Source: a phage
Strand: one strand, 5' to 3'
Sequence record: NC_135728.1
Length of the DNA stretch: 64,000 nt
Shown: one piece after another, positions 2,702-58,663 of the stretch
Numbering within the stretch: position 1 is the first letter of the stretch
How the letters are laid out: every line of letters starts with the position of its first letter
Notes under the pieces: generated by a model
Database searches by the model: none
What the model was told of the DNA's origin: nothing
What the model saw: only the letters and a program-made list of their open reading frames with translations
Program-made: the position numbers and the translations under genes

Positions 2702-2730
2702 AGTATACCTAACTGTTTTGTTAATTTCAA
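2702..2730 (-). promoter_or_regulatory. sigma70-like promoter (TTGAAA-17-TATACT) for the kinase/phosphatase operon
   Basis: Read on minus strand just upstream of the kinase RBS. Confidence 0.45.
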
Positions 2731-2791
2731 GTGTTGACACCAGGTTGTTTGTGTGGCAGGATAGACTGACAAAATGACAAATGAGGAACGT

Positions 2792-3709: not shown

Positions 3710-4056
3710 AGAAGTGGATTGTGTGGCTTGATGATTTTAGAGATCCGTCAGATTATGGACTCCCAGACGCTCTGTGGCTAAAGAATTCTTCTGAGTTTAT
3801 GGATTTTCTTAATGATAAGAGAAAGCTCTACAGACGCGTATCTGAGTGGTATTTTGACAATGATCTAGGTGAAGTGCTTGAAGGGTACGACTGCTTCTCT
3901 GCGCTAGAGGAGAAATTTGTATTCGGAAAGCCACCACTTATTGACAACGTGATTATTTTCGTGCATACTTCTAATCCATCGGCAGCTCGTAAATTTATGC
4001 TTGCTGCTGACTCATTCAAGAAGTTTGGAATAGAGATCAAACAAAACATCTACTAA
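3706..4056 (+). CDS. hypothetical protein (116 aa)
   Basis: ATGA start/stop overlap with the ligase gene; no recognised motif. Confidence 0.5.
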   Translation: MKKWIVWLDDFRDPSDYGLPDALWLKNSSEFMDFLNDKRKLYRRVSEWYFDNDLGEVLEGYDCFSALEEKFVFGKPPLIDNVIIFVHTSNPSAARKFMLAADSFKKFGIEIKQNIY

Positions 4057-4064
4057 GGACATTT

Positions 4065-4826: not shown

Positions 4827-4839
4827 AAGGAGACCTTTA

Positions 4840-5553
4840 ATGCTGAATACTAAACTGATCGACAACCTGGAAAAACTGTCTCAGCCTGAAAACTACCTTT
4901 GGTCTGCCAACTGGGTGGAAAACTGGAACCGTGTGGCAGCTAAAGTGAAAAAATCATACACACCATTCGAATTACAGCTTAGCTTCATTGAGGAAGAGTT
5001 CAATGAGGTTTTGGAAGAGCTGGAGAAAGGTGATGGTGGAGATCACCTGCTAAAAGAGGCCTGCGATCTTCACGTTGTCACAAGTTATGCCGCTTATCTT
5101 GTTAATGACAATCACGAAAAGTGGTCAAACCTGTTTGATAATCCACGAGGTCTTAAGTTCAAGATCGGTGAGTTCTATGATACACTGATCGCTGCGAAAA
5201 ACACATCCAAGCAAAGAGCGTCAGCTTACCGCTTAGCGGAGTTGTCAACAGCTTTGCTGTTCCAGCTTCGCGGAGATGTGTGTGGGATGATGCGGAAGGT
5301 TCTCAAATCTAATGACAGTAAGTTTGCACGGATCAACCATCTACGGCATTCACACGGTGCCAGTGCAGATATGCCTGCTGAACAACTCATCGAGTTGGAG
5401 ATTAAAGATCTTGAGCGTCGTTTTGGTGGTCGCTACGAAGGTTTCGTTGCTAAAGAGGAGTTCTACAACGGCAATAAAGTTATTATATTCCTTGACAGTA
5501 AAGGTAAGATTATGAAGCCTTCGAGCTTCAAGGATGTAACAGAGTATATTTAA
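4840..5553 (+). CDS. hypothetical protein; weak MazG-like NTP pyrophosphohydrolase resemblance
   Basis: AAGGAG RBS; segment IEEEFNEVLEELEKGDGGDHLLKEACDL resembles the MazG EExxE..D helix; assignment tentative. Confidence 0.5.
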   Translation: MLNTKLIDNLEKLSQPENYLWSANWVENWNRVAAKVKKSYTPFELQLSFIEEEFNEVLEELEKGDGGDHLLKEACDLHVVTSYAAYLVNDNHEKWSNLFDNPRGLKFKIGEFYDTLIAAKNTSKQRASAYRLAELSTALLFQLRGDVCGMMRKVLKSNDSKFARINHLRHSHGASADMPAEQLIELEIKDLERRFGGRYEGFVAKEEFYNGNKVIIFLDSKGKIMKPSSFKDVTEYI

Positions 5554-5559
5554 CAACAT

Positions 5560-5586
5560 AGCCGGGATTACCCGGCTTTACTTATT
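5560..5586 (+). terminator. rho-independent terminator
   Basis: AGCCGGG-ATTA-CCCGGCT hairpin followed by TTTACTTATT. Confidence 0.6.
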
Positions 5587-5615
5587 ATGGAAAGTATGCA
5601 GTGAGGTAGTCAGTT

Positions 5616-5924
5616 ATGTACAAGCATTCCAGAGATCTTGAAAAAGATGCTGTGTTTGGCGACCAGATGAAGGAGCTGATCAAACTTATTGGTAGAATGG
5701 AAGATAAGTTTGACACTAAAATCTACATCGATAGCAAGATCTTCAACCACAAAATATGGACAAATGTGTGTGTTGGGCTACATGGTGATAAAGATATTGT
5801 AAATTTGGTTGTAATAAAGTTCATAGTGTGGCAGAATAGGACTATACGTTATTCCGATCCACACTTACTTGTTTATCCTATAAAAGACCTACTACAGAAG
5901 GAGGACTGCAATGCCGTTATTTAA
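5616..5924 (+). CDS. hypothetical protein
   Basis: Track ORF with GAGGT RBS. Confidence 0.5.
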   Translation: MYKHSRDLEKDAVFGDQMKELIKLIGRMEDKFDTKIYIDSKIFNHKIWTNVCVGLHGDKDIVNLVVIKFIVWQNRTIRYSDPHLLVYPIKDLLQKEDCNAVI

Positions 5925-6180
5925 TCTTGCTAAACCTGTAGAAGCACACCAGTTTGACGGAAGCTCTTCATCAGTATCTGATCTGCAACGGTGGATTGAT
6001 ACTGGTGTGTTTACATCGTCGCCTGTTCGGACCAGAGATATTCGTCGCATGTGTGAGCTTATCGAGCCGTTTGGTAACCTTGTCTTGTACCAGGGAGATT
6101 GGCTAGTTGACTTTATGGGAGACTGGTTGGTAATGAGTAAAGAAGAGATGTTTAAAATTTTTAAGGAAGAGGCCGAGTAA
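5911..6180 (+). CDS. hypothetical protein
   Basis: AGGAGG RBS; stop overlaps the ligase start (TAATG). Confidence 0.5.
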   Translation: MPLFNLAKPVEAHQFDGSSSSVSDLQRWIDTGVFTSSPVRTRDIRRMCELIEPFGNLVLYQGDWLVDFMGDWLVMSKEEMFKIFKEEAE

Positions 6181-7463
6181 TGCATCAAATCAAAACAACA
6201 CTGTACGCACTGAACAAAGATGGCAGCTACCAACAGTGGAAAGTATTCACTGATGGCGAAAAGGTTATCGTAGAGTTTGGCAAGCTTGACGGTAAATTGC
6301 AGTACAAAGAGACGGTATGCACACCTAAGAACGTAGGTCGTGCCAACGAGACTACAGCTGAGCAACAGGCCGAGCTTGAGGCTATCAGCAAGTGGGAAAA
6401 ACAAGTCCGCCTGGGGTATGTTGAAAACATGGAAGATTGCGAGCAGGGTGTTGATCTTTTACCCATGCTGGTGCATGACTACCTGAAGCGTGGCAAGGCA
6501 CTTAAATTACCTTGCTGGATCTTGCGTAAGTTAGATGGTCTTCGTCTGCTTGTTGTTTTCCAAAATGGTGAGCCTAAATTTATTTCCCGTGGTAATAAGT
6601 CCTACCCTATTCAAGGAAAGCTTTTAGAGCAACTTCGTTCTTTCCATTCTACCACTAGGATTAAACAACTTGATGGGGAACTATACATTCATGGTCTTCC
6701 TTTGCAGAAAATAGTGTCTCTTGCTAAACGGTGGCGCACACAGGAAGAGATTCAGGCCGAGATCGATAAAGACTATGAGGCAGATAAAAAACGCCGTCAT
6801 GCAGCAATTAAGGCAGGCTTATCAACATACAAAAACTTCAACAAGGTAGATATTCCTGTCGATGTTGAGCCTGTTCGTGATGATTTGCGTTACGGCGGGT
6901 ACTGTAGCTACGATCTGGAGTATCACATTTTTGATATTCCTAGCGACAAGGTGTGGTGGGATCCAGAAACAGAGTCTGGGCGCTGCAAGGATCTTATGGA
7001 TGCAGAGGATACCGTTACCACTCTGATGCTTGATCATATCAAGGTTGTTGACGCAGAGCTTGCGTACACAGTTGATCATTGCGAAGAATCTGTTGGTATA
7101 TTCATGTCCGAAGGATATGAAGGTACTATCATGCGTAATTTCTGCGGTAAATATGAGTATGGTCAGCGAACATCTGAAGCATTGAAATGGAAAAAGTTCA
7201 ACGACGCAGAGGTGAAAGTTATTGACGTTGAGAAAGATAAGAATGATGAAGGTGTTCTTATCTGTGTTGACAAGGAAGGTGTTGTTGTTAAAATGAAGAT
7301 GAAAGGCACGCACGAGGAGCGTAGCTATGACAGGATGCAGGAAATGATCGGCAAGTTTGTCACCTTCAAATACCAAGCAAGGACAGAAGACAACAACTAC
7401 CAATTCCCTGTCGGTATCTGCGTCCGAAATGTTAACCCAGACACTTGGGAGGTGCTTGAATGA
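6180..7463 (+). CDS. ATP-dependent DNA ligase
   Basis: Motif I RKLDGLR (KxDGxR), motif III-like QLDGELYIHG, EGYEGTIMR. Confidence 0.8.
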   Translation: MHQIKTTLYALNKDGSYQQWKVFTDGEKVIVEFGKLDGKLQYKETVCTPKNVGRANETTAEQQAELEAISKWEKQVRLGYVENMEDCEQGVDLLPMLVHDYLKRGKALKLPCWILRKLDGLRLLVVFQNGEPKFISRGNKSYPIQGKLLEQLRSFHSTTRIKQLDGELYIHGLPLQKIVSLAKRWRTQEEIQAEIDKDYEADKKRRHAAIKAGLSTYKNFNKVDIPVDVEPVRDDLRYGGYCSYDLEYHIFDIPSDKVWWDPETESGRCKDLMDAEDTVTTLMLDHIKVVDAELAYTVDHCEESVGIFMSEGYEGTIMRNFCGKYEYGQRTSEALKWKKFNDAEVKVIDVEKDKNDEGVLICVDKEGVVVKMKMKGTHEERSYDRMQEMIGKFVTFKYQARTEDNNYQFPVGICVRNVNPDTWEVLE

Positions 7464-7586
7464 TGTAGGAAGGTTCAGCAGGTAACGGTAGCCAATTGAA
7501 TGATGGTTTTCAATCGGCACCTACATAACCACACTGTGTAGTGTTGTTGATTGTGTTAGTTATGAGTAAACTGGAGAGTATGAAAA

Positions 7587-8057
7587 ATGAAACTTGATAA
7601 AAATGTTCAACGAAAAGCTTTCTTGGATATGATCGCATATTCGGAAGGCACAGATAATGGTAGGCAACCCACTAAGGATCGGGGATACGATGTCATAGTT
7701 GGTGGCAAGCTGTTTAGCGATTACAGCAAGCATCCAGGTGTGTACGTTAAGCTAAATGCTAAACTTACCTCCTCCGCTGCTGGTCGTTACCAGGTTTTGG
7801 AGAAGTTTGCTAAACACTACATGGAACAGTTAGGATTGCCAGATTTTGGCCCTGCCAGTCAGGACAAGATTGCGTTGCAACTGATCCGTGAGTGCAAGGC
7901 TCTCGCCGACATTGACGAAGGGCGTATCCACGAGGCTATCCATAAATGCCGTTCCCGCTGGGCTTCGTTACCTGGTGCTGGATATGGTCAGCATGAACAG
8001 AAGATCGAGAAGTTGATCGAGGTGTTTAAAAAGGCAGGCGGTGTTGTCCTTGATTGA
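7587..8057 (+). CDS. endolysin, lambda R-type lytic transglycosylase
   Basis: Near-colinear with lambda R: QRKAFLDMIAYSEGTDNGRQ, GYDVIVGG, RYQVL, WASLPGAGYGQ. Confidence 0.9.
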   Translation: MKLDKNVQRKAFLDMIAYSEGTDNGRQPTKDRGYDVIVGGKLFSDYSKHPGVYVKLNAKLTSSAAGRYQVLEKFAKHYMEQLGLPDFGPASQDKIALQLIRECKALADIDEGRIHEAIHKCRSRWASLPGAGYGQHEQKIEKLIEVFKKAGGVVLD

Positions 8058-8060
8058 TCA

Positions 8061-8089
8061 TTGACATAACCACAAGGACGTGGTATTGT
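8061..8089 (+). promoter_or_regulatory. sigma70-like promoter TTGACA-17-TATTGT with palindromic spacer
   Basis: Spacer contains CCACAAGGACGTGG. Confidence 0.45.
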
Positions 8090-8120
8090 TACCTCATAAA
8101 ATGTTTAGGAGGGCTTAACC

Positions 8121-8327
8121 ATGAAAGATTTTCTGTTGGCAATTTTGTTCATGGCAGCATGTCTGGCCTGTGGTGTCGTGTTTGCAGGTGAAACAGCGTA
8201 TCTTGTCGATGTATATCGGGACAATGGTAAACGTATTTGCCTTTATGAGACAAGTCAAGGTGAGCTCTACGAGCTTGTGAAACAAGGCGAGGCTGGATCT
8301 TGTCCTCGCACCCATTTCTTTGAATGA
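8121..8327 (+). CDS. small lipoprotein (possible spanin-like lysis accessory)
   Basis: AGGAGG RBS; N-terminal signal with lipobox-like LACG; directly downstream of the endolysin. Confidence 0.5.
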   Translation: MKDFLLAILFMAACLACGVVFAGETAYLVDVYRDNGKRICLYETSQGELYELVKQGEAGSCPRTHFFE

Positions 8328-8336
8328 GGAGAATAC

Positions 8337-8801
8337 GTGGAAGACGGACGTTTAATGAAGTCTGAACGCAGGCTTATTGTGCAACTGATCCCAGAAACAG
8401 CTTGGTATAATAACCTCCGAAACGCTGTGAAGAAGAGTGAGTGGGATAAGATCCGTAAGAAGTGCTACAGAGAAGCCAACTACACTTGCGAGGTGTGCGG
8501 AGGTAAAGGCAGCAAACATCCAGTGGAGTGTCATGAACTTTACACTTTCGAAGAAGGAGTGATCCGTCTTGTCGGACTGATAGCGTTGTGCCCAGACTGT
8601 CACACATCGGTGCATCCTGGGTTAGCAAATATCCGTGGAAAGTATGCTCAGGCAGTTAATCAGTTGGCTAAGGTGAATAAGATCACCAAGGGTATGGCAG
8701 AGGCGTATTACCGAGACTGCTTTGCAGAGTGGCGTGAGCTTAGTAAAGTTCCAGAATGGAAGACTGACTTTTCGTGGATAGAGGGTTACCTTGATGGCTA
8801 A
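8337..8801 (+). CDS. HNH endonuclease
   Basis: CEVCGG ... HPVECHE ... CPDCH zinc/HNH-type motif; GTG start after GAGGAG. Confidence 0.65.
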   Translation: MEDGRLMKSERRLIVQLIPETAWYNNLRNAVKKSEWDKIRKKCYREANYTCEVCGGKGSKHPVECHELYTFEEGVIRLVGLIALCPDCHTSVHPGLANIRGKYAQAVNQLAKVNKITKGMAEAYYRDCFAEWRELSKVPEWKTDFSWIEGYLDG

Positions 8802-9084
8802 GAAACCTGTAAAAGAGAAATTTGATAAGACAGCTTTTGTATTCGATACACCTTTGGACGATATCATCAGAGGTATGCAAGCCTTGTATCGGAAGTCTGA
8901 ATCTGAGCAGCTGTCGGAATCAGAGCTTTACTGGTTGGGTTGGTGGGAGCTTAATCTACCTAAAGCTGAAAGCTCTGATCTAAAAACCGTTAAAACGTGT
9001 GCCCAAGAAAATGCTGCACTTGGAATTTACCACAAAAGAAAAAGATCAACAAAAAGCTCTCCAAGAAAGACTAAAAAGTCTTGA
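8794..9084 (+). CDS. hypothetical protein, basic C-terminus
   Basis: Track ORF; ATG at 8794 after GAGGG. Confidence 0.45.
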   Translation: MAKKPVKEKFDKTAFVFDTPLDDIIRGMQALYRKSESEQLSESELYWLGWWELNLPKAESSDLKTVKTCAQENAALGIYHKRKRSTKSSPRKTKKS

Positions 9085-9110
9085 CAAATGAGTCTCTGAT
9101 CTGATATTAT
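9081..9110 (+). promoter_or_regulatory. sigma70-like promoter TTGACA-17/18-TATTAT
   Basis: Consensus -35 and near-consensus -10 before gene 9144. Confidence 0.45.
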
Positions 9111-9143
9111 CAGTTAACTATTTATTAACTAGGAGAACTAGGT

Positions 9144-9452
9144 ATGCTTAAAATTTTTATTGTTGAAGATAAAGATATCGTCCAGTTGTATGCAAACGAG
9201 AATCACAAAGGTATGATTCTGAAGAAGGCAAAAAACCTTCATGAAAACACAATTCAACCGGGTGATGTAATTAAGATCTGTGGTTATATGATACCAGACT
9301 CCTTGATGAAAATAACCCACCACTGGGGGTCTAATCCGTTCCTTTTTGAAAAGTATTGGGATGTTGAGTCACTTATTGCAGAGAGTGATGATGCATTTCA
9401 TTACAGCATCCAACCATCTTGCAGAATAACTAACAGGAGGGGCTTTGAGTAG
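9144..9452 (+). CDS. hypothetical protein
   Basis: AGGAGAA RBS. Confidence 0.5.
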   Translation: MLKIFIVEDKDIVQLYANENHKGMILKKAKNLHENTIQPGDVIKICGYMIPDSLMKITHHWGSNPFLFEKYWDVESLIAESDDAFHYSIQPSCRITNRRGFE

Positions 9453-10584
9453 AGAATATCCACTTATTGAATCTGTAGATTGTCTTGCTGATCTTCTCGA
9501 ACCTGACGCTATAGTTTATTATGACTTCGACCAGGTTGCATATCAAGCTGCGGCAAGTTGTGAAAAAAGGACAATTGAGGTAACACACAAAGCCTCCGGA
9601 CGTAAGAAGATGTTTAAAACACGAACAGAGTTCTGGGGGCGGCAGAAAAACACCGTTGGTGGTTGGTTAAAAGCTGAGAATACCAACCGTGAAGCCGCAT
9701 GTAAAAAGGCTGGAAAGGAGTTTATTCCGTGGACACGCGAAGATTTCGATGTCTTGGATATCCAAACCCCTGATCCTGTAGAGAACTGCTTACACACAAT
9801 TAAGTGTAAAGCTAATGCAGTTCTTAACTATCTTGGTATTCCGGAAGAGCGATGTGTCGGGGTGTTGGGAGGCACAGGTAACTTCAGACTAGATCTTCCA
9901 ATGCCGGAAAGATACAAAGCCAACCGTAACAATACTCTTCGACCACTGCTGCTTGGAGATGCAAGACAGTATCTCCAAAAGCAGTATAATGCTCAAGTGA
10001 TCAACGGTATCGAGGCTGACGACTGGTTAGCTATCCAGCAATTTGAAGGTTGGAACCACTACCAAAAAACAGGTAAGTTCAACAAGTTTATTATCTCTAT
10101 TGATAAGGACCAAAGAACACTACCTGGACTTGTGTTCGATCCCATGCGAAACGATAAGGGAGATTTTGTAAGGGAAACCCCTATGCTGATCGATAACGGC
10201 ATGGGAAACATCTTCATGAAGCCTAATGGAGAGGTTGGTGGTTACGGAATGCTGTTCTTCGGATACCAAATGCTGTGTGGTGACTCTGCTGACAACATCA
10301 AGCCGTATCAAGGACTTATCGGTAAGGGTAAGTTCGGGGATGCCTCAGCATTCTACCTGCTGTCTCAGTGCAGCACTCCAAAGGAGATGTGGGTGGCTAT
10401 TATTGATCAGTACAAGAAGTGGTTCCCGAAAGGTGTTGTTAAGTATACTGACTTCAATGGCATTGATCGTAGAATTTCCGTAGGTCAATGGATGAGTATA
10501 ATTTTTGACTGTTTGTATATGAAGCGAACATTCAATGATCAAACAAAACTTGTTAACGTTCTTAGAAATGTTGGAGCAATTTGA
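9445..10584 (+). CDS. 5'-3' exonuclease / flap endonuclease (T5 D15-like)
   Basis: GIEADDWLAI (cf. D15 GVEADD), SIDKDQRTL, MLCGDSADNIKPYQGLIGKGKFGDA helix-3-turn-helix; TTG start after AGGAGGGG. Confidence 0.75.
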   Translation: MSREYPLIESVDCLADLLEPDAIVYYDFDQVAYQAAASCEKRTIEVTHKASGRKKMFKTRTEFWGRQKNTVGGWLKAENTNREAACKKAGKEFIPWTREDFDVLDIQTPDPVENCLHTIKCKANAVLNYLGIPEERCVGVLGGTGNFRLDLPMPERYKANRNNTLRPLLLGDARQYLQKQYNAQVINGIEADDWLAIQQFEGWNHYQKTGKFNKFIISIDKDQRTLPGLVFDPMRNDKGDFVRETPMLIDNGMGNIFMKPNGEVGGYGMLFFGYQMLCGDSADNIKPYQGLIGKGKFGDASAFYLLSQCSTPKEMWVAIIDQYKKWFPKGVVKYTDFNGIDRRISVGQWMSIIFDCLYMKRTFNDQTKLVNVLRNVGAI

Positions 10585-10916
10585 TGACTAAAAATGCTGT
10601 AGATAATGCAATTATGGAAGCTGTTTTTGAGGATGATCATACAACAGGGACACTTAAAACAAAAAACACATTTATTGTTGCCACAGGTATGTGGCGGTTG
10701 TACGAAGATGACACTATTGCATACATCTTGTATACTGATGATTACGCAGATGACCGTGTATGGTCTGCTGTTTTAAAAGAGGATTGTGAGCTGATTGAGG
10801 GCGAGCGGTTATGCATGTTCACCAGTGTGGAAACAGATGTTAAGCTTTGCTCTCTCGTCTTGTTCAAAGATAAGGCTTATGCTCCTGATGAAGGAGAGGA
10901 GGATGAGAGAGCATGA
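10584..10916 (+). CDS. hypothetical acidic protein
   Basis: Track ORF. Confidence 0.5.
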   Translation: MTKNAVDNAIMEAVFEDDHTTGTLKTKNTFIVATGMWRLYEDDTIAYILYTDDYADDRVWSAVLKEDCELIEGERLCMFTSVETDVKLCSLVLFKDKAYAPDEGEEDERA

Positions 10917-11542
10917 GAGAGCGTCTATTATCCATAGACCAGTCGTTGACACACACAGCTTGCGTTGTATGGGACGATGGAAAGCCTGTTCATAAGGTTG
11001 TGTTACGAACTCAAAGCTCATCTGCAAAAGAGAAGAAACCAGGGACGGTTTCTTTTGCAACAGCTGCTGAGCGCATTGACTGGATCTGCAAACAGGTCAG
11101 ATATTATATCCACACGCACGGAGTTGACACCGTGGTTATGGAAGGGCTTTCCTTTGGATCACGCGGTGATGCCACACGTGAGCTGGCTGGGCTGTTTTAC
11201 GGTCTTGAAATTATGCTTTGGGATGCCTTAGCTGATTGTGAAAATGACGGCCTGTTTAAGGTCCACACAGTGACACCAACAACTGCCAAAAAGTTTGCTC
11301 GTAGTCATCTTCCTGAAGAACTTGCTTTTGAGGAGAAGAAAAAGCTTGACAAAAAGACAGGTAAAGAGCATACTGTGAAGAAACCTGTTACAATGGATAA
11401 AAAGTTGATGGTTAAGGCCTGCGAAGTATCTGAACCTGGGTTCCTAGATGGGATCAATTTGGTACAAGGTAAGGCCGATCTCGCAGATGCTTATTGGATA
11501 GGCAGGGCTCATCTGGAGGGATTATCGCAAAGCGTAAAATAA
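10913..11542 (+). CDS. RuvC-like Holliday junction resolvase
   Basis: SIDQSLTHTACVV, VVMEGLSFGSRGD, C-terminal ADLADA; ATGA overlap with upstream gene. Confidence 0.6.
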   Translation: MRERLLSIDQSLTHTACVVWDDGKPVHKVVLRTQSSSAKEKKPGTVSFATAAERIDWICKQVRYYIHTHGVDTVVMEGLSFGSRGDATRELAGLFYGLEIMLWDALADCENDGLFKVHTVTPTTAKKFARSHLPEELAFEEKKKLDKKTGKEHTVKKPVTMDKKLMVKACEVSEPGFLDGINLVQGKADLADAYWIGRAHLEGLSQSVK

Positions 11543-12099
11543 GAAAGAAAGCTGTCAAAGCCCCAGTTCATAACGGGTGGTTAAAAGATTCTAAGGACAT
11601 AGCCAACTTTCGAAAAGAATTGTCAGAGGAGCAGGATGGTCTTGATCCGATCTTGTGCGAGCCACTTCGTAAGCCTTGTTTAGATCATGATCATCTGACT
11701 GGTCGTTGCAGGGGTGTTTTGTCTCAATGCACTAATACCTTTGAGGGATATGTGCTTAAATACTGGATGAAATACTGTAACGAGTATACAGATTGCAGTT
11801 TATCAGAGGCGTTGCGCCGGATGGCTGACTATTTGGAGAAAGACTACAGCGACTTCCCGCTCCACAAAAACTACAGAGATGATATGACAAAGTTCTTGAG
11901 GAGATGCTCTAAAGCTACGATTATTGCACGAGCAGAATCAGATCTAAATCTTGTCATTAATCCGGAGTGCACCAAGCATGAGGCTATTGAGTTCTACATG
12001 CAGGAGTTTATAAAGAAAACTGAGGAGAGAGATTTCTATGGGGATGAAAAAGGTATTCAATCCTTGCGACTCAGTCCTGATCAGGATGAAATACCGTAA
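11494..12099 (+). CDS. endonuclease VII-like HNH nuclease domain protein
   Basis: CLDHDHLTGRCRGVLSQCTN (DHxHxTGxxRGxLxxxCN); only start available in frame is TTG at 11494 with no RBS, 48 nt inside previous gene. Confidence 0.5.
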   Translation: MDRQGSSGGIIAKRKIRKKAVKAPVHNGWLKDSKDIANFRKELSEEQDGLDPILCEPLRKPCLDHDHLTGRCRGVLSQCTNTFEGYVLKYWMKYCNEYTDCSLSEALRRMADYLEKDYSDFPLHKNYRDDMTKFLRRCSKATIIARAESDLNLVINPECTKHEAIEFYMQEFIKKTEERDFYGDEKGIQSLRLSPDQDEIP

Positions 12100-39997: not shown

Positions 39998-40346
39998 CAC
40001 ACAATTAGTTGCCCGGCTAAAGTGCTGGGAGCACCCATAACACATCTTTCAACTAAATTTCCTACCACCACAATCACTTACCTCCCACACATGACTGTTT
40101 GCTTGTTTAGTGAGCAGTCATGCCTTGACATTCTTGCCTATCCTGATAAAATTAAGTTCTTCTCTTTTCTTTTACCGAGTAATTCGGGTTTTCTGTTCTC
40201 TTCGGTTTGAAGGGGTATGGAGATACACCTGAGTGAACAGGGTGAACAACCGAACCATTGGCTATGGCATTAGCATGGCGAAGCGGACGGGTGACGAAAG
40301 AGGGGCCGGAGGACACCAGTCACTGCCATATGATATATGGGTGATA

Positions 40347-40865
40347 ACCTGAAGAGTCTGAATAAGTGTTTAAGTACCAGTCAGAGGAAAAGGTGAATGG
40401 TAGCCGAAGGGGGAGGGGGGTTACCTGCTTCTGTAAACATGCATCTGAAATACTACTTTAGATAACCTGAACCTGCCTTTCTGACAAATATTCCCTATTA
40501 AACTTGAATTATTTATAGAAAATACCACAACACCACTTAAGTCTTTGATTTTACACACAAATCTTACAGATATTAAACCTCTCTATTTAACATACCTGTA
40601 ACATATACTATACTCCACCTGTCTGATCAATTTCCCCAACTACATCCCCATATTTTCCCTGTCTGTACTACCCCTGCCCCGCCGGGAGTCCCGTCATATC
40701 TGGCTTTCCAGCAAATATCACACCCACAAATATCATCACCTGAAGAGGGTTTCATCCCATAATACATGCCTTACCTGAAGAGCGCTTCATATACCCCGTA
40801 AATTTTTTAATTGACCCCCTCCCCGCCGCCGGAGGGGTTGGCTTTTCCCACACAAACCTGAAGAG
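40347..40865. repeat. dispersed direct repeats of ACCTGAAGAG (4 copies)
   Basis: Copies at about 40347, 40738, 40773, 40856; ACCTGAAC variant at about 40463. Confidence 0.5.
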
Positions 40866-41425
40866 TCAGCCAGAAATATCTGAACAGCCAGTTATACCAC
40901 GATTTTGTGCTTGTCCTACAGGAGTGCTTCCCTGTCAGGAGCCGGTAGCGACTGGAGTGCTGCCAGGCGGACGAAATGGGAATACTTCTCATTCTTATAA
41001 CAATTCTCAAATATCGAGGCAGTGAGGCAAATTAATAGGTGAGGCCGTTCACACAGTGGCACAACATTTGCAACCTATCTTGTGGGATTGAATGAGAATA
41101 CCTATCATTGTGAGAACTGTTATCATTACGGGCAATTTAACATAATACCCATTATGCGCACCACTGGCGATACATACAGGGATTTATAACATGAGTTACT
41201 GTTTACGTATATAACAATTATATTTCTTACTATTTGTGTGGGATATAGTTAGCAGCCGATAGATTAGATATTGACCTGCAGACTTCCAACCGTCTAGACG
41301 TCTAAACGCCCACACAACAAGGTTTATACATACATTACTGAATGTAAACAGGGCCGCAAAAATGCTACCATACAAGATTGTAAATTTTTCATGCAGCACT
41401 TGACAAAGAGGAGAAAAACTTGTCT

Positions 41426-41505
41426 GACACTTTAGACACAATAGTGACATAATATGACACCTTTGACACACTGGACACATTAAACATAATTGACATGCCT
41501 GACTG
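41426..41505. repeat. iteron-like array of GACA(C/T) repeats phased every 9-11 bp
   Basis: Eight copies: GACAC, GACACA, GACAT, GACAC, GACACA, GACACA, GACAT, GACT. Confidence 0.6.
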
Positions 41506-41540
41506 TTTACATAGCTAACTATTTACTAAAAAATGATAAG

Positions 41541-41852
41541 CCATGCCATTCGTTTGCATGATAAAGATTAGCAAGTTAATAATCTTTCGCTGGCTATGCC
41601 AGGTGACCTTTGGTCACCCCTTCGGGTGTTTCTATGACATAATATAAAAGCAGGGCAACTATTAGCAGATCATAGTTGCCTTGCTTGTTAACACCCTTGA
41701 GACGAAGGCTTTGCCTGAGTTTATGTCATGATTAACTAAATACAAGGCAACTATGATCTGATTAATAGTTTGCAGACAAACTATCACGGGGGTGATGGTT
41801 ACTGCTTTTATATTATGTCGCGACTCCGTCGCGCCATGCCATTCGTTTGCAT
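41541..41852. repeat. nested repeat complex: 19-bp direct repeat, 18-bp inverted repeat and internal palindromes
   Basis: CCATGCCATTCGTTTGCAT at 41541 and 41834; GACATAATATAAAAGCAG (41636) inverted at 41802; GGTGACC-TTT-GGTCACC; GGCAACTAT-N9-ATAGTTGCC. Confidence 0.6.
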
Positions 41853-42477
41853 AGTTGCCTTATTGTTACGAATAAAACAATTGCATTGTTAATGATTTCT
41901 TATCTTTCTCTTAGTCATCTAATGATTCCAGTCAGTCTAGTAATGTACAGTAAACATTAGACGACTAAAGATTTCCCTGTTTATGATAACTCACCGTGAT
42001 AATTTCAGGCTGTTTACTAAAAATGTTGACACCTAAGCTGATTTATGTTATGCAGTTTACACGAATAATTATTTTATGCAGGTATTGACTATTCCGTTAT
42101 TCTATGGTTGGAATAAATACTTAGCAGACTATAGAATGGTGAGCGTACGTAAATTCTGAGATCTGGCGGCTATAGTTATACTCGATTTTTCACGTAGAAC
42201 ACGCTTTTGTGAGTGTGTAAGTGTATGACTTATAAAGATTTTTAGTTGTTGACAAGATATTGAAGATGTGCATCAGGTTAAATTTTGTGCAATAGCGGCA
42301 TTACGTGCAATTCTGAGAGAGAAAACGGGTAAAAATGGCCCTGCTACCACAAGATGAAAGATTATGCAATAGTTATTTTTATATGTATATTTGTACAGTA
42401 GGGTTAATTGCTGGCTTGTTGATTATTCCACTTGCCAGGTGGGGCCGTTTGTGGTAGGAGAAATACAGACAAAAAGA

Positions 42478-54680: not shown

Positions 54681-55013
54681 TTAAGGTAGCCAGTAAACAA
54701 TCTCGCCTTTCAGCTTCATGTCGTTTCCAACATAAATTTGCCAGCCATCCATTTTAGCAACTGTAGGCCCAAAGTCATCCGCACCCCTTACCTCTTTCCA
54801 GGCTCCGTAGTCAGGTTGCCAGATATAGAATCCACCTTCTTTGTCCCATGCTCCGTACACTACGTTCAACAGGTTTCCCATTGCAACAATGGTGGGCCGT
54901 GGGAATAATACATCTACAGATGCGCCACAATTTCGAGTATCTTTTAAGTTGCAATCCCAAAAGATGTCTGCCAGTGTGGCGGCGATAGCTTTACGTCTTT
55001 CTAGTGTTACCAT
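54681..55013 (-). CDS. hypothetical protein
   Basis: Track ORF. Confidence 0.5.
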   Translation of the reverse strand: MVTLERRKAIAATLADIFWDCNLKDTRNCGASVDVLFPRPTIVAMGNLLNVVYGAWDKEGGFYIWQPDYGAWKEVRGADDFGPTVAKMDGWQIYVGNDMKLKGEIVYWLP

Positions 55014-55022
55014 ATATCATAC

Positions 55023-55214
55023 TCACTTGTTGTTAATAAGTTCTAAAACTTTCTGTCTTACTTTGTCAAGGTCTGTTGATTCAAAAACTGTGCGATATCC
55101 CCAACTTTGCCCATAGGAGTGACTGCAATCACCGTAGCACCATTGCTCAATTTGATAGTATTCAAGGAACGGGTGCTGTCTAACTATGATACCATCCCGG
55201 TTAAAAATTACCAT
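55023..55214 (-). CDS. hypothetical protein
   Basis: AAAGAGAGCG leader. Confidence 0.5.
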   Translation of the reverse strand: MVIFNRDGIIVRQHPFLEYYQIEQWCYGDCSHSYGQSWGYRTVFESTDLDKVRQKVLELINNK

Positions 55215-55277
55215 AATACATCGCTCTCTTTTAGTTTATGCGTATACTATACACTGCAGTTTTCAGATGTCAACCTC

Positions 55278-55472
55278 TTATAGATTGCTCCAGTACAATC
55301 GGCATTTACATTTTGGGCAATGAGGTTCTTTTATGTAATAACCATCAGTCTTTGGAACACTTTTTGGTGCAGTTTTAAGATTGTACCGAGTAAAACACCG
55401 GAAGCAGGTTACCTCTCCGACTTGTTGATCGTTGATCCACTCACCAGAGTAAAGCTCTTTCTTGTTTCTCAT
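55278..55472 (-). CDS. small zinc-ribbon-like protein
   Basis: CFRCF...CPKCKC; ATG after GGGAGAGAA; ATGA-coupled to upstream ORF. Confidence 0.45.
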   Translation of the reverse strand: MRNKKELYSGEWINDQQVGEVTCFRCFTRYNLKTAPKSVPKTDGYYIKEPHCPKCKCRLYWSNL

Positions 55473-55669
55473 AATTCTCTCCCTAATCCTCTGCAATCTT
55501 CTACCAGAATCTCCAGCCAGAAAGCACAAGGGAACACTTTAAGGATTGAATCTTTACTCGGTTCGGAAGTTCTTTTTCCGTAGGGCAGGTAGAAATACCC
55601 TCCTGCAGATTCGAACACGGCCCCTTCGGTCGTATCTATCACAGCCAGAATTAAGATTTTAGTCTCCAT
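55469..55669 (-). CDS. hypothetical protein
   Basis: GAGAGGGAG RBS. Confidence 0.45.
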   Translation of the reverse strand: METKILILAVIDTTEGAVFESAGGYFYLPYGKRTSEPSKDSILKVFPCAFWLEILVEDCRGLGREL

Positions 55670-55722
55670 AGTGCTCCCTCTCTCAATCGTTGTGGTGACT
55701 ATACCATCTCAAAAGTCAGCTG

Positions 55723-56181
55723 TCAACACTCTTTGTATTCCACCACGATAATATCTATATCAAAAGTGGCAAGGTTAATAACGTCCTCTACATGCTCCCA
55801 CTTCAAACCGCCTATGCCGCACCCGATTTTGGGGATGTAGAATGGTAAAGTCGATCCACTGAATACCTCATTGACCAGCTCAAAGCCTTTCAGGATTGAG
55901 AAATATTCAGCATTAGGCCCTGGGTAGAACTGAGTATACAGATTGATTCCGTAGACAATACCTCTCGGAGATGAGTGCTCCCATCGGGAGAACGCACCCA
56001 GTTTACTTAGGCAACCGTGTCTGGTCTCTTTGTCGGCTGACAATGCTTGAGGAAACTCACGGGCAATCTGTTTTGCTATGCCCTTACCCATCGTGTGGAA
56101 GCAGTTACAACCGTGGATCAGGTGACCAGCACCGCTCTTAAAAAGGGAGATTAAATCTCCCTCTACAGTATCAATAATCAC
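55723..56181 (-). CDS. macro-domain (ADP-ribose binding / processing) protein
   Basis: GDLISLFKSGAGHLIHGCNCFHTMGKGIAKQIAREFP and later IGCGIGGL match macro-domain landmarks; start uncertain (GTG 56181 or ATG 56220). Confidence 0.7.
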   Translation of the reverse strand: MIIDTVEGDLISLFKSGAGHLIHGCNCFHTMGKGIAKQIAREFPQALSADKETRHGCLSKLGAFSRWEHSSPRGIVYGINLYTQFYPGPNAEYFSILKGFELVNEVFSGSTLPFYIPKIGCGIGGLKWEHVEDVINLATFDIDIIVVEYKEC

Positions 56182-56596
56182 GGTATGCCAGCTCCTCTTC
56201 CGCAATTTCAAAAAACTCATCCCAACCTTGTGGCATATTTGAGTTGCCGAAGTGGCTTTCATAGTAAAGGTTCTCACCACTTGGAAGATAGAAATCTGTT
56301 ACCTCGTAGAATCCACAATCGTCGCACTCGCCTTCTTCAAACTTGGCCTCAACCTTAATACCGAGGAAGGTGAAAAGTTTATGTATATCTTCAGTTTCGA
56401 ACTCCCAGTGAATGTTGTTTTCCGCATCGGTGTAGAACTGGATCAGCAGACCATTGTCCAGTTTACCAAAATACTCTGTGAAGTAACTCCCTTCCCAGAA
56501 ATCTTTATGACAAATAATATCCATGCGCTTACCCATAATAATGGTGTGAGCGTTTTGGGCATCGTCATGAATCAGTTTTGGCATTTCATAGATCAT
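56171..56596 (-). CDS. hypothetical protein
   Basis: GGAGAA RBS. Confidence 0.5.
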   Translation of the reverse strand: MIYEMPKLIHDDAQNAHTIIMGKRMDIICHKDFWEGSYFTEYFGKLDNGLLIQFYTDAENNIHWEFETEDIHKLFTFLGIKVEAKFEEGECDDCGFYEVTDFYLPSGENLYYESHFGNSNMPQGWDEFFEIAEEELAYRDY

Positions 56597-56664
56597 CTTA
56601 GTTCTCCGGGTTCAACAGGTGGTGGTGCTACAGGAAGATCATAAAACATAGCTATCACAGTCTC

Positions 56665-56862
56665 TTACACAGGAATTGCTTCAAACAGGCCGTTATCTAT
56701 ACCGTCCTTCAGATAGAGATTATATTCTATGTCGGTATCTGTATAAAAGGCAGCATCCAGCATTCTATCTGTGAGTCCATCCATTGGGTGGAGAAACCAC
56801 CACCCACGCCAGTCAAAGTAACAGCCTGGTGCATCTTCTCTTACACGGATTCGATAAATCAT
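56665..56862 (-). CDS. hypothetical protein
   Basis: AGGAGG RBS. Confidence 0.45.
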   Translation of the reverse strand: MIYRIRVREDAPGCYFDWRGWWFLHPMDGLTDRMLDAAFYTDTDIEYNLYLKDGIDNGLFEAIPV

Positions 56863-56957
56863 GGGCAGTGGCCTCCTGTTAGTTATACATCCCAGTTTTC
56901 TTCGTTCATCACGTCCTCCAGTCTATGAAGTTATAATTGCACACCTTTCAACCTGTG

Positions 56958-57374
56958 TCAACAGAAAACTTCAACAAACTCTTCCACAGTTTTAATGTCG
57001 TGGGAAAAAGGTTTACGGCTATAACGGGCAATAGCACTATCAACCACCGCCCGGTACTCCAAATCTTCAGAATATTTCATGAAGCATTGCAGTGTTTCTG
57101 GACAGATAGCTAGATAGCTCCACCACCCTTCATCAGATTGATAGTCAAAGCCCATGCTCTCCAACCATGAAGCATATACTCCAGCACCCTCAAGCCAGTG
57201 GGTATTTTCATCCAGAAACTTGTTAACAGACATGTGAGCTTCTAAGCACTTGTCCAGCTCTTTTCCGTTAACCAGCCACGCACTGACTGTGGCACATCCA
57301 AGGTCTACAGATTGAGTTGACAGGTTGTATTGGTCATAGTTCTCAGGTTTAACAATGATATCTTCTAATGTCAT
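56958..57374 (-). CDS. hypothetical acidic protein
   Basis: AAGGAGA RBS. Confidence 0.5.
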   Translation of the reverse strand: MTLEDIIVKPENYDQYNLSTQSVDLGCATVSAWLVNGKELDKCLEAHMSVNKFLDENTHWLEGAGVYASWLESMGFDYQSDEGWWSYLAICPETLQCFMKYSEDLEYRAVVDSAIARYSRKPFSHDIKTVEEFVEVFC

Positions 57375-57436
57375 TTTTCAGATCTCCTTATACAAAAATG
57401 CCCCACCCTTTCGGGCAGGGCTATGTTAACTAGATG

Positions 57437-58663
57437 TTAGAAGGGGATGTCATCATCAAAGGCGTACTGTGCTGGATTCTGATCCATCGGGTCGTCTTCC
57501 CCATCATTTACAGGAGGAGCGTCTACAGTGTTTTGCTGTGGAGCTGCTTCCTGTTTGGCAGCCTGAGGTTCTTGATGGTCAGTTGACCCAGCACCGTTCT
57601 TGATCCAATCGTACAACGGCTCAGCCAGATTAGTCAACACATCTTTTGCTTCTGCAGTAATTGCCGCTGCAAAATCATCAACTTTCGTTTTCTTGTCAAT
57701 ACGGCGACAAGCGTTCAACACCGCATTACCGACACTGGCACCTACTTCATCTTCAGTTCGGTTGGTGGCTTGAGCATACTCTTTCTTAAGCTCAATGGTG
57801 ACTACGTGCAGTGCTTTAGCCACACCTAGTGGGTCGTCTACCTTAAACCCGCGATCCAGGATGATTTGCAACGCATTGATGCTATGCCCAGTCTCCACAC
57901 CAATAGGGTCGTAAGAGGATTTACGCTTGCCACCAGAGCCTTGAGTGCCGTTCTCTGCCTTAGGTGGGTAGGCTTTGAAACCACTGATAATGTTTCCGGT
58001 GTCTTTGTCAACAATGGCTGCAACACGACCACCTACCACCAGGTCTTTAAGCTGCTCATCAGTGACAACCATAGCACCTTCGCCAATCTTGTGGTCATTA
58101 ACAGTAACCACGTTGCCAACAATCTGAGCCACATCGCCATAGATGCGTAAAACGTCCTGATTGGCATTCTGCTGAGGTTTCTGCTTCTGACCTTGTGATT
58201 GTGCACCTTGTTGCTGTTTTTGCTGCTGAGTCGCTGCTGGAGCCTCTCCTGCACCCAGCTTAACCATCTTAGCCAGTGAGCCTTTGTAGTAGGTCTTACC
58301 GTTATGCTCGTTTGCCTTCAAAGGAATATTTACGATCCATCCTGTCGTTACGGTTTCCCACTTGTCATCAATCTTAACAGAGACAGAGTCTTGATGACCC
58401 GGTTTAAGCAGCTTATCACCCATGCTGATCCAGACTTCTTCACCACCTTGAAGCAGGTTATCAGAGGAATCCAGTTCAGAAATCAGTAAAGAGATGGTGT
58501 GGCTGGACTCAATTTTCTTACCTTGCCACACGGTGGTTTTAATACCTGTTGCAGGATCAGCCCCTTTAATAGGTTTGATGCTAACACGTTTGATCATACC
58601 GTGAGCCAGTAAAACAGTTTCACGCGGATTCATCGGGTTAGCAAATTGTTGAATAACGCTCAT
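57437..58663 (-). CDS. multi-domain protein with SSB-type acidic C-terminal tip (putative ssDNA-binding protein)
   Basis: C-terminus ...AFDDDIPF is the same hexapeptide as the E. coli SSB tip; Gln-rich low-complexity linker QQQKQQQGAQSQGQKQKPQQ; AAGGAGA RBS. Confidence 0.55.
   Translation of the reverse strand: MSVIQQFANPMNPRETVLLAHGMIKRVSIKPIKGADPATGIKTTVWQGKKIESSHTISLLISELDSSDNLLQGGEEVWISMGDKLLKPGHQDSVSVKIDDKWETVTTGWIVNIPLKANEHNGKTYYKGSLAKMVKLGAGEAPAATQQQKQQQGAQSQGQKQKPQQNANQDVLRIYGDVAQIVGNVVTVNDHKIGEGAMVVTDEQLKDLVVGGRVAAIVDKDTGNIISGFKAYPPKAENGTQGSGGKRKSSYDPIGVETGHSINALQIILDRGFKVDDPLGVAKALHVVTIELKKEYAQATNRTEDEVGASVGNAVLNACRRIDKKTKVDDFAAAITAEAKDVLTNLAEPLYDWIKNGAGSTDHQEPQAAKQEAAPQQNTVDAPPVNDGEDDPMDQNPAQYAFDDDIPF

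What the first reader, a model, noticed from the sequence alone, without database searches (positions are those of the whole stretch)
55723..56220. Macro-domain protein in the early-like leftward block
The product has macro-domain landmarks (GDLIS...HGCNCFHTMGKGIAKQIA...IGCGIGGL) indicating ADP-ribose binding or hydrolysis. In a phage this could reverse ADP-ribosylation of DNA or proteins (for example by DarT-like toxins) or process ADP-ribose-derived signalling molecules. With the Sir2 gene at 4065-4826 the phage carries both a potential writer and an eraser of ADP-ribose chemistry.
Basis: partly seen in the sequence, partly recalled or inferred. Interest (0 to 1): 0.6.

Follow-up and report, generated by a model that had tools for sequence, protein, structure and literature searches.

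The report
Phage macrodomain, T4 Tk.4/AdfM orthologue
This is a real, intact macrodomain gene of an rV5-like E. coli phage, the orthologue of phage T4 Tk.4 (AdfM), which most likely strips ADP-ribose off phage DNA to defeat the bacterial DarTG2 defence; it is a member of a family already described, and it is not paired with the phage's Sir2 gene.

Summary
The true start is most likely GTG 56181 (152 aa), not ATG 56220. The window is a Vequintavirus (rV5-like, about 99% identical to phiWec193).

The protein aligns end to end with T4 Tk.4 (39% identity, E 2e-40) and RB49 Tk.4 (68%). A November 2025 preprint renamed Tk.4 AdfM after showing that a T4 tk.4 knockout becomes sensitive to DarTG2.

The best reading is an orphan antitoxin-like DNA de-ADP-ribosylase acting against DarT2.

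The Sir2 "writer/eraser" pairing is not supported:
- Sir2 sits 51 kb away in an RNA ligase-cREC-Sir2-MazG cluster already predicted to do RNA repair.
- T5 has the Sir2 but no macrodomain.
- T4-like phages have the macrodomain but showed no Sir2 in the sampled hits.

This is a new, untested member of a known kind, of low to moderate interest.

The parts
55723..56181 (-). Macrodomain CDS (152 aa plus stop), the orthologue of T4 Tk.4/AdfM. GTG start at 56181-56179, TGA stop at 55725-55723.
   Evidence: ORF and translation. End-to-end alignment with T4 Tk.4, 39% identity, E 2e-40. phrog_335 E 6e-59. Model pLDDT 96.7.
56192..56197 (-). Shine-Dalgarno GAGGAG, 10 nt upstream of the GTG start.
   Evidence: Read from the sequence. 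Conserved in all five Vequintavirus sequences compared.
56182..56220 (-). Most likely not translated as part of the macrodomain; it is the 3' end of the upstream gene read in another frame.
   Evidence: The ATG is AAG in AlexBoehm. No homologue has an equivalent extension aligned to it. T4 and RB49 Tk.4 start at the GTG-equivalent codon.
56104..56115 (-). H23-G24-C25-N26 motif. Asn26 is equivalent to DarG N22, phiKZ AdfM N23 and SCO6735 N27. His23 is equivalent to SCO6735 H24.
   Evidence: N26 and G24 invariant, H23 at least 90% conserved, in 44 homologues. Alignments to PDB chains. Roles of these residues from PMC9411070 and PMC13309987.
56080..56091 (-). First glycine loop, M31-G32-K33-G34 (phosphate/ADP-ribose binding). 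K33 matches SCO6735 K34 and the Lys in Mtb DarG 'MGKG'.
   Evidence: M31 and G34 are invariant in the 44 homologues. G32 is invariant only in the four-sequence alignment. The motif aligns with SCO6735 'WGKG' and DarG 'MGKG'.
55930..55944 (-). N80-L-Y-T-Q84 motif. Gln84 occupies the position of the catalytic Lys of DarG (K80) and TARG1 (K84), and of the essential Gln85 of SCO6735.
   Evidence: N80 and Q84 invariant. The profile aligns NlYTQ with DarG NFPTK, TARG1 LITK, and SCO6735 and BT1257 NMIGQ. SCO6735 Q85A is inactive (PMC9411070).
55807..55824 (-). Second glycine loop, G120-C-G122-I-G124-G125 (diphosphate-binding loop). Gly124 sits where TARG1 has the catalytic Asp125.
   Evidence: G120 and G125 invariant, G122 at least 90% conserved. 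Aligns with TARG1 IGCGLDRL, SCO6735 IGCGLAGG and DarG LGVGNGGL.
56171..56596 (-). Upstream 141-aa gene of unknown function. Its stop overlaps the macrodomain start (GTGATTATTGA), so the two are probably co-transcribed and translationally coupled.
   Evidence: ORF list. phrog_8157, function unknown. No Pfam, PDB or PADLOC hit. The pairing is absent next to tk.4 in T4 and RB49.
55698..55726 (-). Near-consensus sigma-70-type promoter, TTGACA-17 nt-TATAGT with an extended -10 TG. Its -35 hexamer contains the macrodomain stop codon, and it would drive the downstream small genes.
   Evidence: 11 of 12 consensus matches; sequence.
56933..56961 (-). Nearest upstream sigma-70-like site (TTGACA-17-AATTAT, with TG), a candidate promoter for the transcript that carries the macrodomain gene.
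   Evidence: 10 of 12 consensus matches. This is a consensus match only, not shown to function.

Best explanation
The gene encodes a stand-alone, catalytically competent macrodomain of the ALC1-like (TARG1/DarG/SCO6735) class, the Vequintavirus orthologue of T4 Tk.4 (AdfM, 'anti-DarT factor macrodomain').

Proposed mechanism:
1. It is made early from host-type promoters.
2. It acts as an orphan antitoxin. When the host DarTG2 system releases DarT2, which ADP-ribosylates thymidines in single-stranded phage DNA and blocks replication, the macrodomain binds the ADP-ribose in its two-glycine-loop pocket.
3. It hydrolyses the ribose-thymine bond, restoring replicable DNA.
4. It has no DarT-binding C-terminal domain, so neutralisation is expected to be mainly enzymatic.
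5. Its active site is of the SCO6735 type (His23, Asn26 and Gln84, with no catalytic Lys and no Asp). This predicts lysine-independent, water-mediated catalysis in which Gln84, held by Asn26, positions the distal ribose.

Status of the steps:
- Shown here: gene integrity, fold class, orthology to Tk.4, conservation of the pocket and of Gln84, and purifying selection.
- Taken from the literature: the anti-DarTG2 phenotype of T4 tk.4, and thymidine-ADPr hydrolysis by SCO6735 and by the Lys-type phiKZ AdfM.
- Inferred: that this protein does the same.
For: - Orthology: 39% identity to T4 Tk.4 and E 2e-40 across the full length; 68% to RB49 Tk.4.
- Genetics in T4: tk.4 was the single hit in a T4 transposon library on a DarTG2 host, and a clean knockout is DarTG2-sensitive (preprint 10.1101/2025.11.20.689424).
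- Curated libraries: the only NCBIfam and PADLOC matches are to DarG's macrodomain.
- Sequence to PDB: the best single-sequence hit is Mtb DarG, E 1e-7. The family profile gives Mtb DarG, BT1257 and SCO6735 62-63 bits, TARG1 about 60 and Taq DarG 57.
- Active site: G24, N26, M31, G34, N80, Q84, G120 and G125 are invariant in 44 homologues.
- Precedent for the Gln: SCO6735, with Gln at the same position, removes thymidine-linked ADPr from DNA, rescues E. coli from DarT, and is dead as Q85A or N27S (PMC9411070).
- Precedent in phages: phiKZ AdfM removes DarT2 marks from DNA in vitro (PMC13309987).
- Consistent phyletics: T5 lacks the macrodomain and is DarTG2-sensitive (PMC11825919).
- Selection and expression: dN/dS 0.08-0.16, in a block enriched for sigma-70-like promoters.
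Against: - No experiment exists on this protein or on any Vequintavirus orthologue. The HIDEN-SEQ study screened Bas54 (a Vequintavirus), but no DarTG2 screen is reported for it.
- T4 Tk.4 has genetic evidence only, from a preprint, with no biochemistry.
- Identity to T4 Tk.4 is 39%, and macrodomains of this class are multi-substrate. TARG1 and SCO6735 also act on proteins, and Poa1p acts on ADPr-1''-phosphate.
- The catalytic Lys of DarG is absent, and the SCO6735 mobile-loop lysines (K89, K94) have no counterpart, because the loop is about 5 residues shorter.
- Iyer et al. argued on contextual grounds that most phage macrodomains target soluble ADPr derivatives.
- Some distant homologues lie beside NAD-salvage genes.
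Confidence: 0.65

Rival explanations
1. Metabolite clean-up enzyme. The macrodomain hydrolyses small ADP-ribose derivatives such as ADP-ribose-1''-phosphate (Poa1p-like 'A1pp phosphatase') or O-acyl-ADP-ribose (TARG1/OARD1-like). These would include products of the phage's own Sir2/cREC RNA-repair module. The link to Sir2 would then be metabolic rather than writer/eraser.
For: - GenBank, RAST and PHROG annotations read 'phosphatase', 'A1pp phosphatase motif' and 'Poa1p_like'.
- The window does carry RNA ligase-cREC-Sir2-MazG, which is predicted to generate ADPr>P or ADPr-1''P (PMC9503650).
Against: - Sir2 and the macrodomain are 51 kb apart, on opposite strands, in different modules.
- T5 has the Sir2 orthologue without any macrodomain.
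- T4-like phages have the macrodomain while Sir2 was not detected among sampled hits.
- The only phenotype known for an orthologue is anti-DarTG2.
- The database labels are domain-level transfers, not tests.
Confidence: 0.12
2. Eraser of a different ADP-ribose mark or signal. Candidates are ADP-ribosylated host or phage proteins or RNA, or NAD-derived immune second messengers such as Thoeris-type cyclic ADPR isomers.
For: - SCO6735, which shares the Gln-type site, and TARG1 also de-modify proteins (PMC9411070).
- Iyer et al. favour soluble ADPr derivatives as targets for phage macrodomains.
- The family is very widespread, with homologues in 2,777 of 50,697 phage records, which may exceed what DarTG2 pressure alone explains.
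- Some homologues sit next to NAMPT or PRPP synthetase genes.
Against: - No experimental link exists between this family and any such substrate.
- The closest defence-library match is DarG and nothing else.
- The T4 screen on DarTG2 gave tk.4 as the only hit.
Confidence: 0.15
3. Non-catalytic binder. The protein neutralises DarT2, or senses ADP-ribose, by binding alone and without hydrolysis, because the canonical catalytic Lys is missing.
For: - Lys is replaced by Gln84.
- Catalytically dead SCO6735, DarG and TARG1 still inhibit DarT in vitro by interaction (PMC9411070).
Against: - Gln at this position is the active, essential residue in SCO6735.
- Asn26, His23 and both Gly loops are invariant or nearly so, which is the pattern of an enzyme.
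- The protein lacks the DarT-binding domain of DarG. Only positions 4-141 of the 329-position PADLOC model are covered.
Confidence: 0.05

Closest known systems
T4 Tk.4 = AdfM (anti-DarT factor macrodomain), HIDEN-SEQ preprint 10.1101/2025.11.20.689424; RB49 Tk.4
   Same: - Same length class (152 vs 155 aa) and a stand-alone macrodomain.
- Collinear from residue 1 to the end, at 39% identity (T4) and 68% (RB49).
- Same HGCNCFHTMG, NLYTQF-PGPN and IG-GIG motifs, including Gln at the catalytic-Lys position.
- Lies in a block of small early-type genes.
   Different: - Different genomic neighbours: in T4 and RB49 it lies between vs and tk, whereas here it follows an unrelated 141-aa ORF with overlapping stop and start.
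- Uses GTG instead of ATG as the start.
- Untested in any Vequintavirus.
Streptomyces coelicolor SCO6735 (PDB 5E3B) and Bacteroides BT1257 (2FG1/2AFC)
   Same: - The same lysine-less active site: His-x-Cys-Asn, Gln at the K80/K84 position, and Gly-rich loop IGCG..GG.
- SCO6735 hydrolyses thymidine-linked ADPr-DNA and neutralises DarT (PMC9411070).
   Different: - About 22% identity.
- Gly24 in place of Val25.
- The loop after the Gln is about 5 residues shorter and lacks K89 and K94.
- SCO6735 is a cellular, DNA-damage-regulated protein, not a phage gene.
DarG antitoxin of DarTG2 (T. aquaticus 5M31/5M3E, M. tuberculosis 5M3I)
   Same: - It is the best single-sequence PDB hit, and the only NCBIfam and PADLOC match.
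- Conserved Asn (N22 in Taq DarG).
- Both would reverse DarT2 marks.
   Different: - Catalytic Lys80 is replaced by Gln84.
- There is no C-terminal DarT-binding domain: 152 aa against about 330-400, with only model positions 4-141 of 329 matched.
- No darT was detected among the ORFs tested.
- The NCBIfam score is 48 bits against a cut-off of 250.
Chimallivirus AdfM (phiKZ gp104; PMC13309987)
   Same: A phage-encoded stand-alone macrodomain of the DarG-like class, shown to remove DarT2 ADP-ribose from DNA and to protect the phage. It independently received the same name.
   Different: - Only 21-22% identity (E 2e-5 pairwise).
- It is the Lys type (FPTK, K78), not the Gln type.
- It is imported into the phage nucleus.
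- It belongs to a separate sub-family, probably an independent acquisition.
Human TARG1/OARD1 (4J5R/4J5S) and yeast Poa1p (6LFQ)
   Different: - The TARG1 Lys84/Asp125 dyad is Gln84/Gly124 here.
- Poa1p is an ADPr-1''-phosphate phosphatase with extra insertions (about 166-180 residues).

Membership tests
Macro domain superfamily (Pfam PF01661) | Score above Pfam's gathering threshold and a macro alpha/beta fold | tested here: met
   [not shown]
   N26, M31, G34, G120 and G125 invariant, G122 at least 90% conserved, in 44 homologues down to 32% identity.
ALC1-like (TARG1/DarG/SCO6735/Poa1p) macrodomain class | Closest in sequence and structure to this class rather than to the MacroD-like, PARG-like or macroH2A-like classes | tested here: met
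   [not shown]
T4 Tk.4 / AdfM family (phrog_335) | Full-length collinear homology to T4 Tk.4 with the shared signature motifs | tested here: met
   BLASTP 39% identity, E 2e-40, residues 1-150 against 1-152. phrog_335 E 6e-59. HGCNCFHTMG, NLYTQF.PGPN and IG.GIG motifs shared.
T4 Tk.4 / AdfM family (phrog_335) | Protects the phage against DarTG2 (the function that defines the name AdfM) | not testable with these tools
   Shown genetically only for T4. It needs plaque assays of a deletion mutant on a DarTG2 host.
DarG antitoxin (NCBIfam NF048014 equivalog; PADLOC DarG) | Score above the equivalog cut-off, i.e. macrodomain plus C-terminal DarT-binding domain | tested here: not met
   48.1 bits against a cut-off of 250; only model positions 3-143 of 338 are aligned. 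PADLOC positions 4-141 of 329. The protein ends at residue 152.
DarG antitoxin (NCBIfam NF048014 equivalog; PADLOC DarG) | Catalytic lysine (Taq DarG K80) | tested here: not met
   The aligned residue is Gln84, invariant in the family.
DarG antitoxin (NCBIfam NF048014 equivalog; PADLOC DarG) | Encoded next to a darT toxin gene | tested here: not met
   The four nearest ORFs tested (two upstream, one downstream, plus 56958-57374) have no PADLOC hit, and the three of them tested against Pfam have no hit. Annotated relatives list only hypothetical proteins around the gene.
SCO6735-type (lysine-independent) thymidine-ADPr DNA hydrolases | His24, Asn27, Gln85 and Gly128 equivalents present | tested here: met
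   H23 (at least 90% conserved), with N26, Q84 and G120/G125 invariant. The profile aligns the family NlYTQ motif with NMIGQ of 5E3B and 2FG1. Residue roles from PMC9411070.
SCO6735-type (lysine-independent) thymidine-ADPr DNA hydrolases | Long mobile loop with DNA-binding Lys89 and Lys94, and Val25 | tested here: not met
   The loop after Gln84 is QFYPGPNAEY against QHGMKTGSKGAPVRY, which is shorter and has no Lys. Gly24 replaces Val25. K33 does match K34.
Sirtuin-macrodomain writer/eraser pair (SirTM-type operon or toxin-antitoxin) | Adjacent, co-oriented sirtuin and macrodomain genes that co-occur across genomes | tested here: not met
   The genes are 51 kb apart on opposite strands. Sir2 lies in an RNA ligase-cREC-Sir2-MazG cluster. 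T5 has Sir2 without a macrodomain. Sampled T4-like macrodomain records are absent from the sampled Sir2 hits.

The most novel reading that the evidence does not exclude
The whole Tk.4/AdfM family, found in about 5% of sequenced phage genomes, uses the lysine-independent, SCO6735-like Gln mechanism rather than the DarG Lys mechanism to which it has been compared. It may therefore be a faster and broader eraser. Besides thymidine-ADPr on DNA, it would remove protein or RNA ADP-ribose marks, or ADPr-1''-phosphate arising from the phage's sirtuin/cREC RNA-repair pathway. If so, in rV5-like phages it would serve both counter-defence and NAD/ADPr housekeeping.
Probability: 0.25. Interest if true: 0.5.

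Novelty: new member of a known kind. Interest (0 to 1): 0.3.

Why it matters
rV5-like phages (Vequintavirinae) are broad-host-range E. coli phages, so knowing which defences they can disarm helps predict their host range. Assigning this conserved early gene to the AdfM family predicts that these phages resist DarTG2.

It also extends a counter-defence known from T4 (genetics) and phiKZ (biochemistry) to another large phage group.

The invariant Gln at the catalytic-lysine position gives a concrete, testable mechanistic prediction: SCO6735-like chemistry, with Q84A and N26A mutants inactive.

Tried and rejected
1. Rejected: ATG 56220 is not conserved (AAG in AlexBoehm), both would overlap the upstream gene by 50-92 nt, and all homologues start at the GTG-equivalent codon.
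2. Membership in DarG proper. Rejected: no C-terminal domain, no Lys, no darT gene, and a score far below the cut-off.
3. Sir2-macro functional pair. Rejected on position, on the Sir2 neighbourhood, and on phyletic independence.
4. Sir2 as a defence-type NADase. It has no PADLOC hit. It scores as a CobB-like sirtuin (Pfam 97.6 bits) but below every NCBIfam equivalog cut-off.
5. The upstream 141-aa ORF as a DarT-binding partner. No Pfam, PDB or PADLOC similarity, and the linkage is not conserved in T4 or RB49. Left open.
6. Close identity with phiKZ AdfM. They are only 21-22% identical and differ at the catalytic residue.
7. Literature searches for 'phage-encoded macrodomain' (0 papers) and for 'AdfM' (apart from the phiKZ paper, the listed hits were unrelated acronyms).
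8. tRNA and Rfam scans of the window and of the gene-poor 39.3-42.3 kb stretch found nothing.
9. Not used: the search of protein representatives, the second structure job and metagenome scans. The answer did not depend on them.
Full report
**What the window is.**
The 2.5 kb around the finding is 99.0% identical to Escherichia phages phiWec193 and phiWec196, and at least 90% identical to 118 of the 119 matching records. Nearly all of these are Vequintavirus (rV5-like) phages. The first 12 kb of the window matches the same phages. So the window is part of an rV5-like myovirus genome of about 135-140 kb.

**The observation.**
The domain assignment is not a chance match.
- Pfam Macro scores 28.1 bits against a cut-off of 22, but only the first 32 profile positions are matched.
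- phrog_335 gives E 6e-59.
- The only NCBIfam and PADLOC hits are the macrodomain part of the DarG antitoxin, at E 1e-12 and 2.7e-14.
- A profile built from 44 homologues hits DarG, BT1257, SCO6735, TARG1 and Poa1p in the PDB at 44-63 bits.
- The AlphaFold2 model has mean pLDDT 96.7 and pTM 0.91.
- Against four Vequintavirus orthologues, dN/dS is 0.08-0.16, so the gene is under purifying selection.

**Start codon.**
The evidence favours GTG at 56181 (152 aa).
- T4 Tk.4, RB49 Tk.4 and almost all database homologues begin at this residue, with M-I-I/V.
- The GTG and a GAGGAG Shine-Dalgarno 10 nt upstream are conserved in five Vequintaviruses.
- Three other GenBank records annotate exactly this 459-nt CDS.
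- The GTG overlaps the stop of the upstream 141-aa ORF (GTGATTATTGA), which suggests translational coupling.

**Which macrodomain.**
Structure searches put the protein in the ALC1-like class.
- Foldseek agrees, with TARG1 at TM 0.78-0.85 and DarG and SCO6735 at about 0.75.

In the 44-sequence family alignment the invariant residues are G24, N26, M31, G34, A36, N80, Q84, P117, I119, G120 and G125. That set covers both glycine loops and the Asn required in DarG, SCO6735 and phiKZ AdfM.

The position of the catalytic Lys of DarG (K80) and TARG1 (K84) is an invariant Gln84, in the motif NLYTQ against NFPTK and LITK. TARG1's Asp125 is Gly124 here. This is the arrangement of Streptomyces SCO6735 and Bacteroides BT1257 (NMIGQ). 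SCO6735 removes thymidine-linked ADP-ribose from DNA, rescues E. coli from DarT, and is inactivated by Q85A or N27S (PMC9411070). Two differences from SCO6735 are Gly24 in place of Val25 and a shorter, lysine-free loop after the Gln.

**Relatives and what is known about them.**
tblastn finds homologues in 2,777 of 50,697 phage records. These include T4-like phages, where the gene is tk.4 next to vs, as well as FelixO1-like, Vi1-like and Pakpunavirus phages.
- The window protein is 68% identical to RB49 Tk.4 and 39% identical (E 2e-40, end to end) to T4 Tk.4.
- The HIDEN-SEQ preprint (10.1101/2025.11.20.689424) reports that tk.4 was the single conditionally essential T4 gene on a DarTG2 host. 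A clean knockout is DarTG2-sensitive, and the authors name it AdfM.
- That study also screened Bas54, a Vequintavirus, but reports no DarTG2 screen for it.
- Independently, a Cell Reports 2026 paper (PMC13309987) named the phiKZ gp104 macrodomain AdfM and showed that it removes DarT2 marks from DNA.
- That protein is the Lys type (K78) and only 21-22% identical to the window protein. The two 'AdfM' proteins are therefore different sub-families of one class.
- T5 is DarTG2-sensitive (PMC11825919) and has no member of the family by tblastn or by the family HMM over 1,068 stop-to-stop ORFs.

**Most likely mechanism.**
The protein is an early-expressed, stand-alone, antitoxin-like ADP-ribosyl glycohydrolase. 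It removes DarT2-installed ADP-ribose from thymidines of single-stranded phage DNA, using a lysine-independent SCO6735-type active site (His23, Asn26, Gln84).
- Shown here: fold class, orthology, active-site conservation and selection.
- From the literature: the T4 phenotype and the chemistry of SCO6735 and phiKZ AdfM.
- Inferred: the activity of this particular protein.

I put this at 0.65. The rivals are ADPr-1''-phosphate or O-acyl-ADPr clean-up (0.12), erasure of another ADP-ribose mark or immune signal (0.15), and a non-catalytic binder (0.05). The close similarity to Poa1p and the multi-substrate habits of this class keep the first two alive.

**The Sir2 claim.**
The ORF at 4065-4826 is a genuine sirtuin (Pfam SIR2 97.6 bits). 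It sits in a plus-strand cluster of Rnl1-like RNA ligase (2774-3709), cREC cyclic-phosphate-processing domain (3706-4056), Sir2 and a MazG-like pyrophosphohydrolase (4840-5553). A kinase-like P-loop ATPase and a metallophosphoesterase lie just upstream.

Iyer et al. 2022 describe exactly this neighbourhood, naming Escherichia phage V5. They predict a KptA-like RNA-end-repair role and note that here the sirtuin is not coupled to a macrodomain gene (PMC9503650). Four further points count against a pairing.
- The macrodomain is 51 kb away, on the other strand.
- T5 has a 57%-identical Sir2 and no macrodomain.
- Roughly 25 of 60 evenly sampled macrodomain hits are T4-like genomes of 160-182 kb, and none of the 60 sampled Sir2 hits is.
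- The Sir2 has no PADLOC match.

The writer/eraser pairing is therefore not supported. A looser metabolic link through ADPr-1''P remains possible, but it is not favoured.

**Context of the gene.**
From about 40 kb to the end of the window the genes are small and on the minus strand. The 50-64 kb stretch carries 49 sigma-70-like promoter matches against 24.7 +/- 5 expected, nearly all on the minus strand. One of them, TTGACA-17-TATAGT, has a -35 hexamer that contains the macrodomain stop codon.

**Verdict.**
- The gene is already annotated as a macrodomain protein in several GenBank records.
- Its family has a published counter-defence role, so it is a new and untested member of a known kind.
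- The one point I did not find stated in the papers read is that the Tk.4-type family carries an invariant Gln, as in SCO6735, rather than DarG's Lys. This gives a specific mechanistic prediction.
- Interest: 0.3.

Noticed in passing
window 1701-5553: RNA-repair-type cluster: a metallophosphoesterase and a P-loop ATPase on the minus strand, then Rnl1-like RNA ligase (2774-3709), cREC cyclic-phosphate-processing domain (3706-4056), Sir2 (4065-4826) and a MazG-like pyrophosphohydrolase (4840-5553). It matches the 'phage V5' sirtuin neighbourhood that Iyer et al. 2022 predicted to act like KptA/Tpt1. As far as I could see it is experimentally untested.
   Followed up: partly
window 56171-56596 (-): A 141-aa ORF of unknown function (phrog_8157; no Pfam, PDB or PADLOC hit). 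Its stop codon overlaps the macrodomain GTG start (GTGATTATTGA). The pairing is conserved in Vequintaviruses but absent next to tk.4 in T4 and RB49.
   Followed up: partly
window 55698-55726 (-): Near-consensus sigma-70 promoter, TTGACA-17-TATAGT with an extended -10 TG. Its -35 hexamer contains the macrodomain stop codon. The 50-64 kb block has twice the expected number of such sites, almost all on the minus strand.
   Followed up: partly
window 55278-55529 (-): An 83-aa protein with a Pfam PF23903 phage zinc-binding domain (79.6 bits), two genes downstream of the macrodomain.
   Followed up: no
window c. 40300-42100: A gene-poor stretch where the plus-strand and minus-strand gene blocks converge. 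It has no tRNA and no Rfam hit at E <= 0.1, and the Murica record annotates only two terminators there. The HIDEN-SEQ preprint reports that the ~2 kb intergenic region separating oppositely transcribed genes in Bas54, probably the same region, tolerates no transposon insertions. Its function is unexplained.
   Followed up: partly
GenBank MG0656xx records (e.g. MG065644.1, MG065690.1), matched to window 55000-57500 and 1-12000: Records labelled 'Campylobacter phage' with host C. jejuni are 95-99.5% identical to this E. coli Vequintavirus sequence. The host label looks doubtful and may reflect contamination or mislabelling.
   Followed up: no
L003 3001-3453 (RB49 tk.4) vs window 55726-56181: The Vequintavirus macrodomain is 68% identical to Tk.4 of RB49 (Krischvirus) but only 39% identical to Tk.4 of T4. 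This suggests lateral exchange of the gene between rV5-like and RB49-like phages.
   Followed up: no
phage records MH800198.1, MW344056.1, ON922990.1: In some Acinetobacter and Vibrio phages, distant homologues of the macrodomain lie directly beside nicotinamide phosphoribosyltransferase or ribose-phosphate pyrophosphokinase genes. This hints at a link to NAD salvage in those lineages.
   Followed up: no
L002 4923-5390 (T4 tk.4) and L004 12518-13006 (phiKZ gp104): Two different proteins were independently named AdfM in 2025-2026. T4 Tk.4 is the Gln type and phiKZ gp104 is the Lys type (K78). The window orthologue is only 21-22% identical to gp104, so the shared name hides two sub-families with probably different chemistry.
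   Followed up: yes
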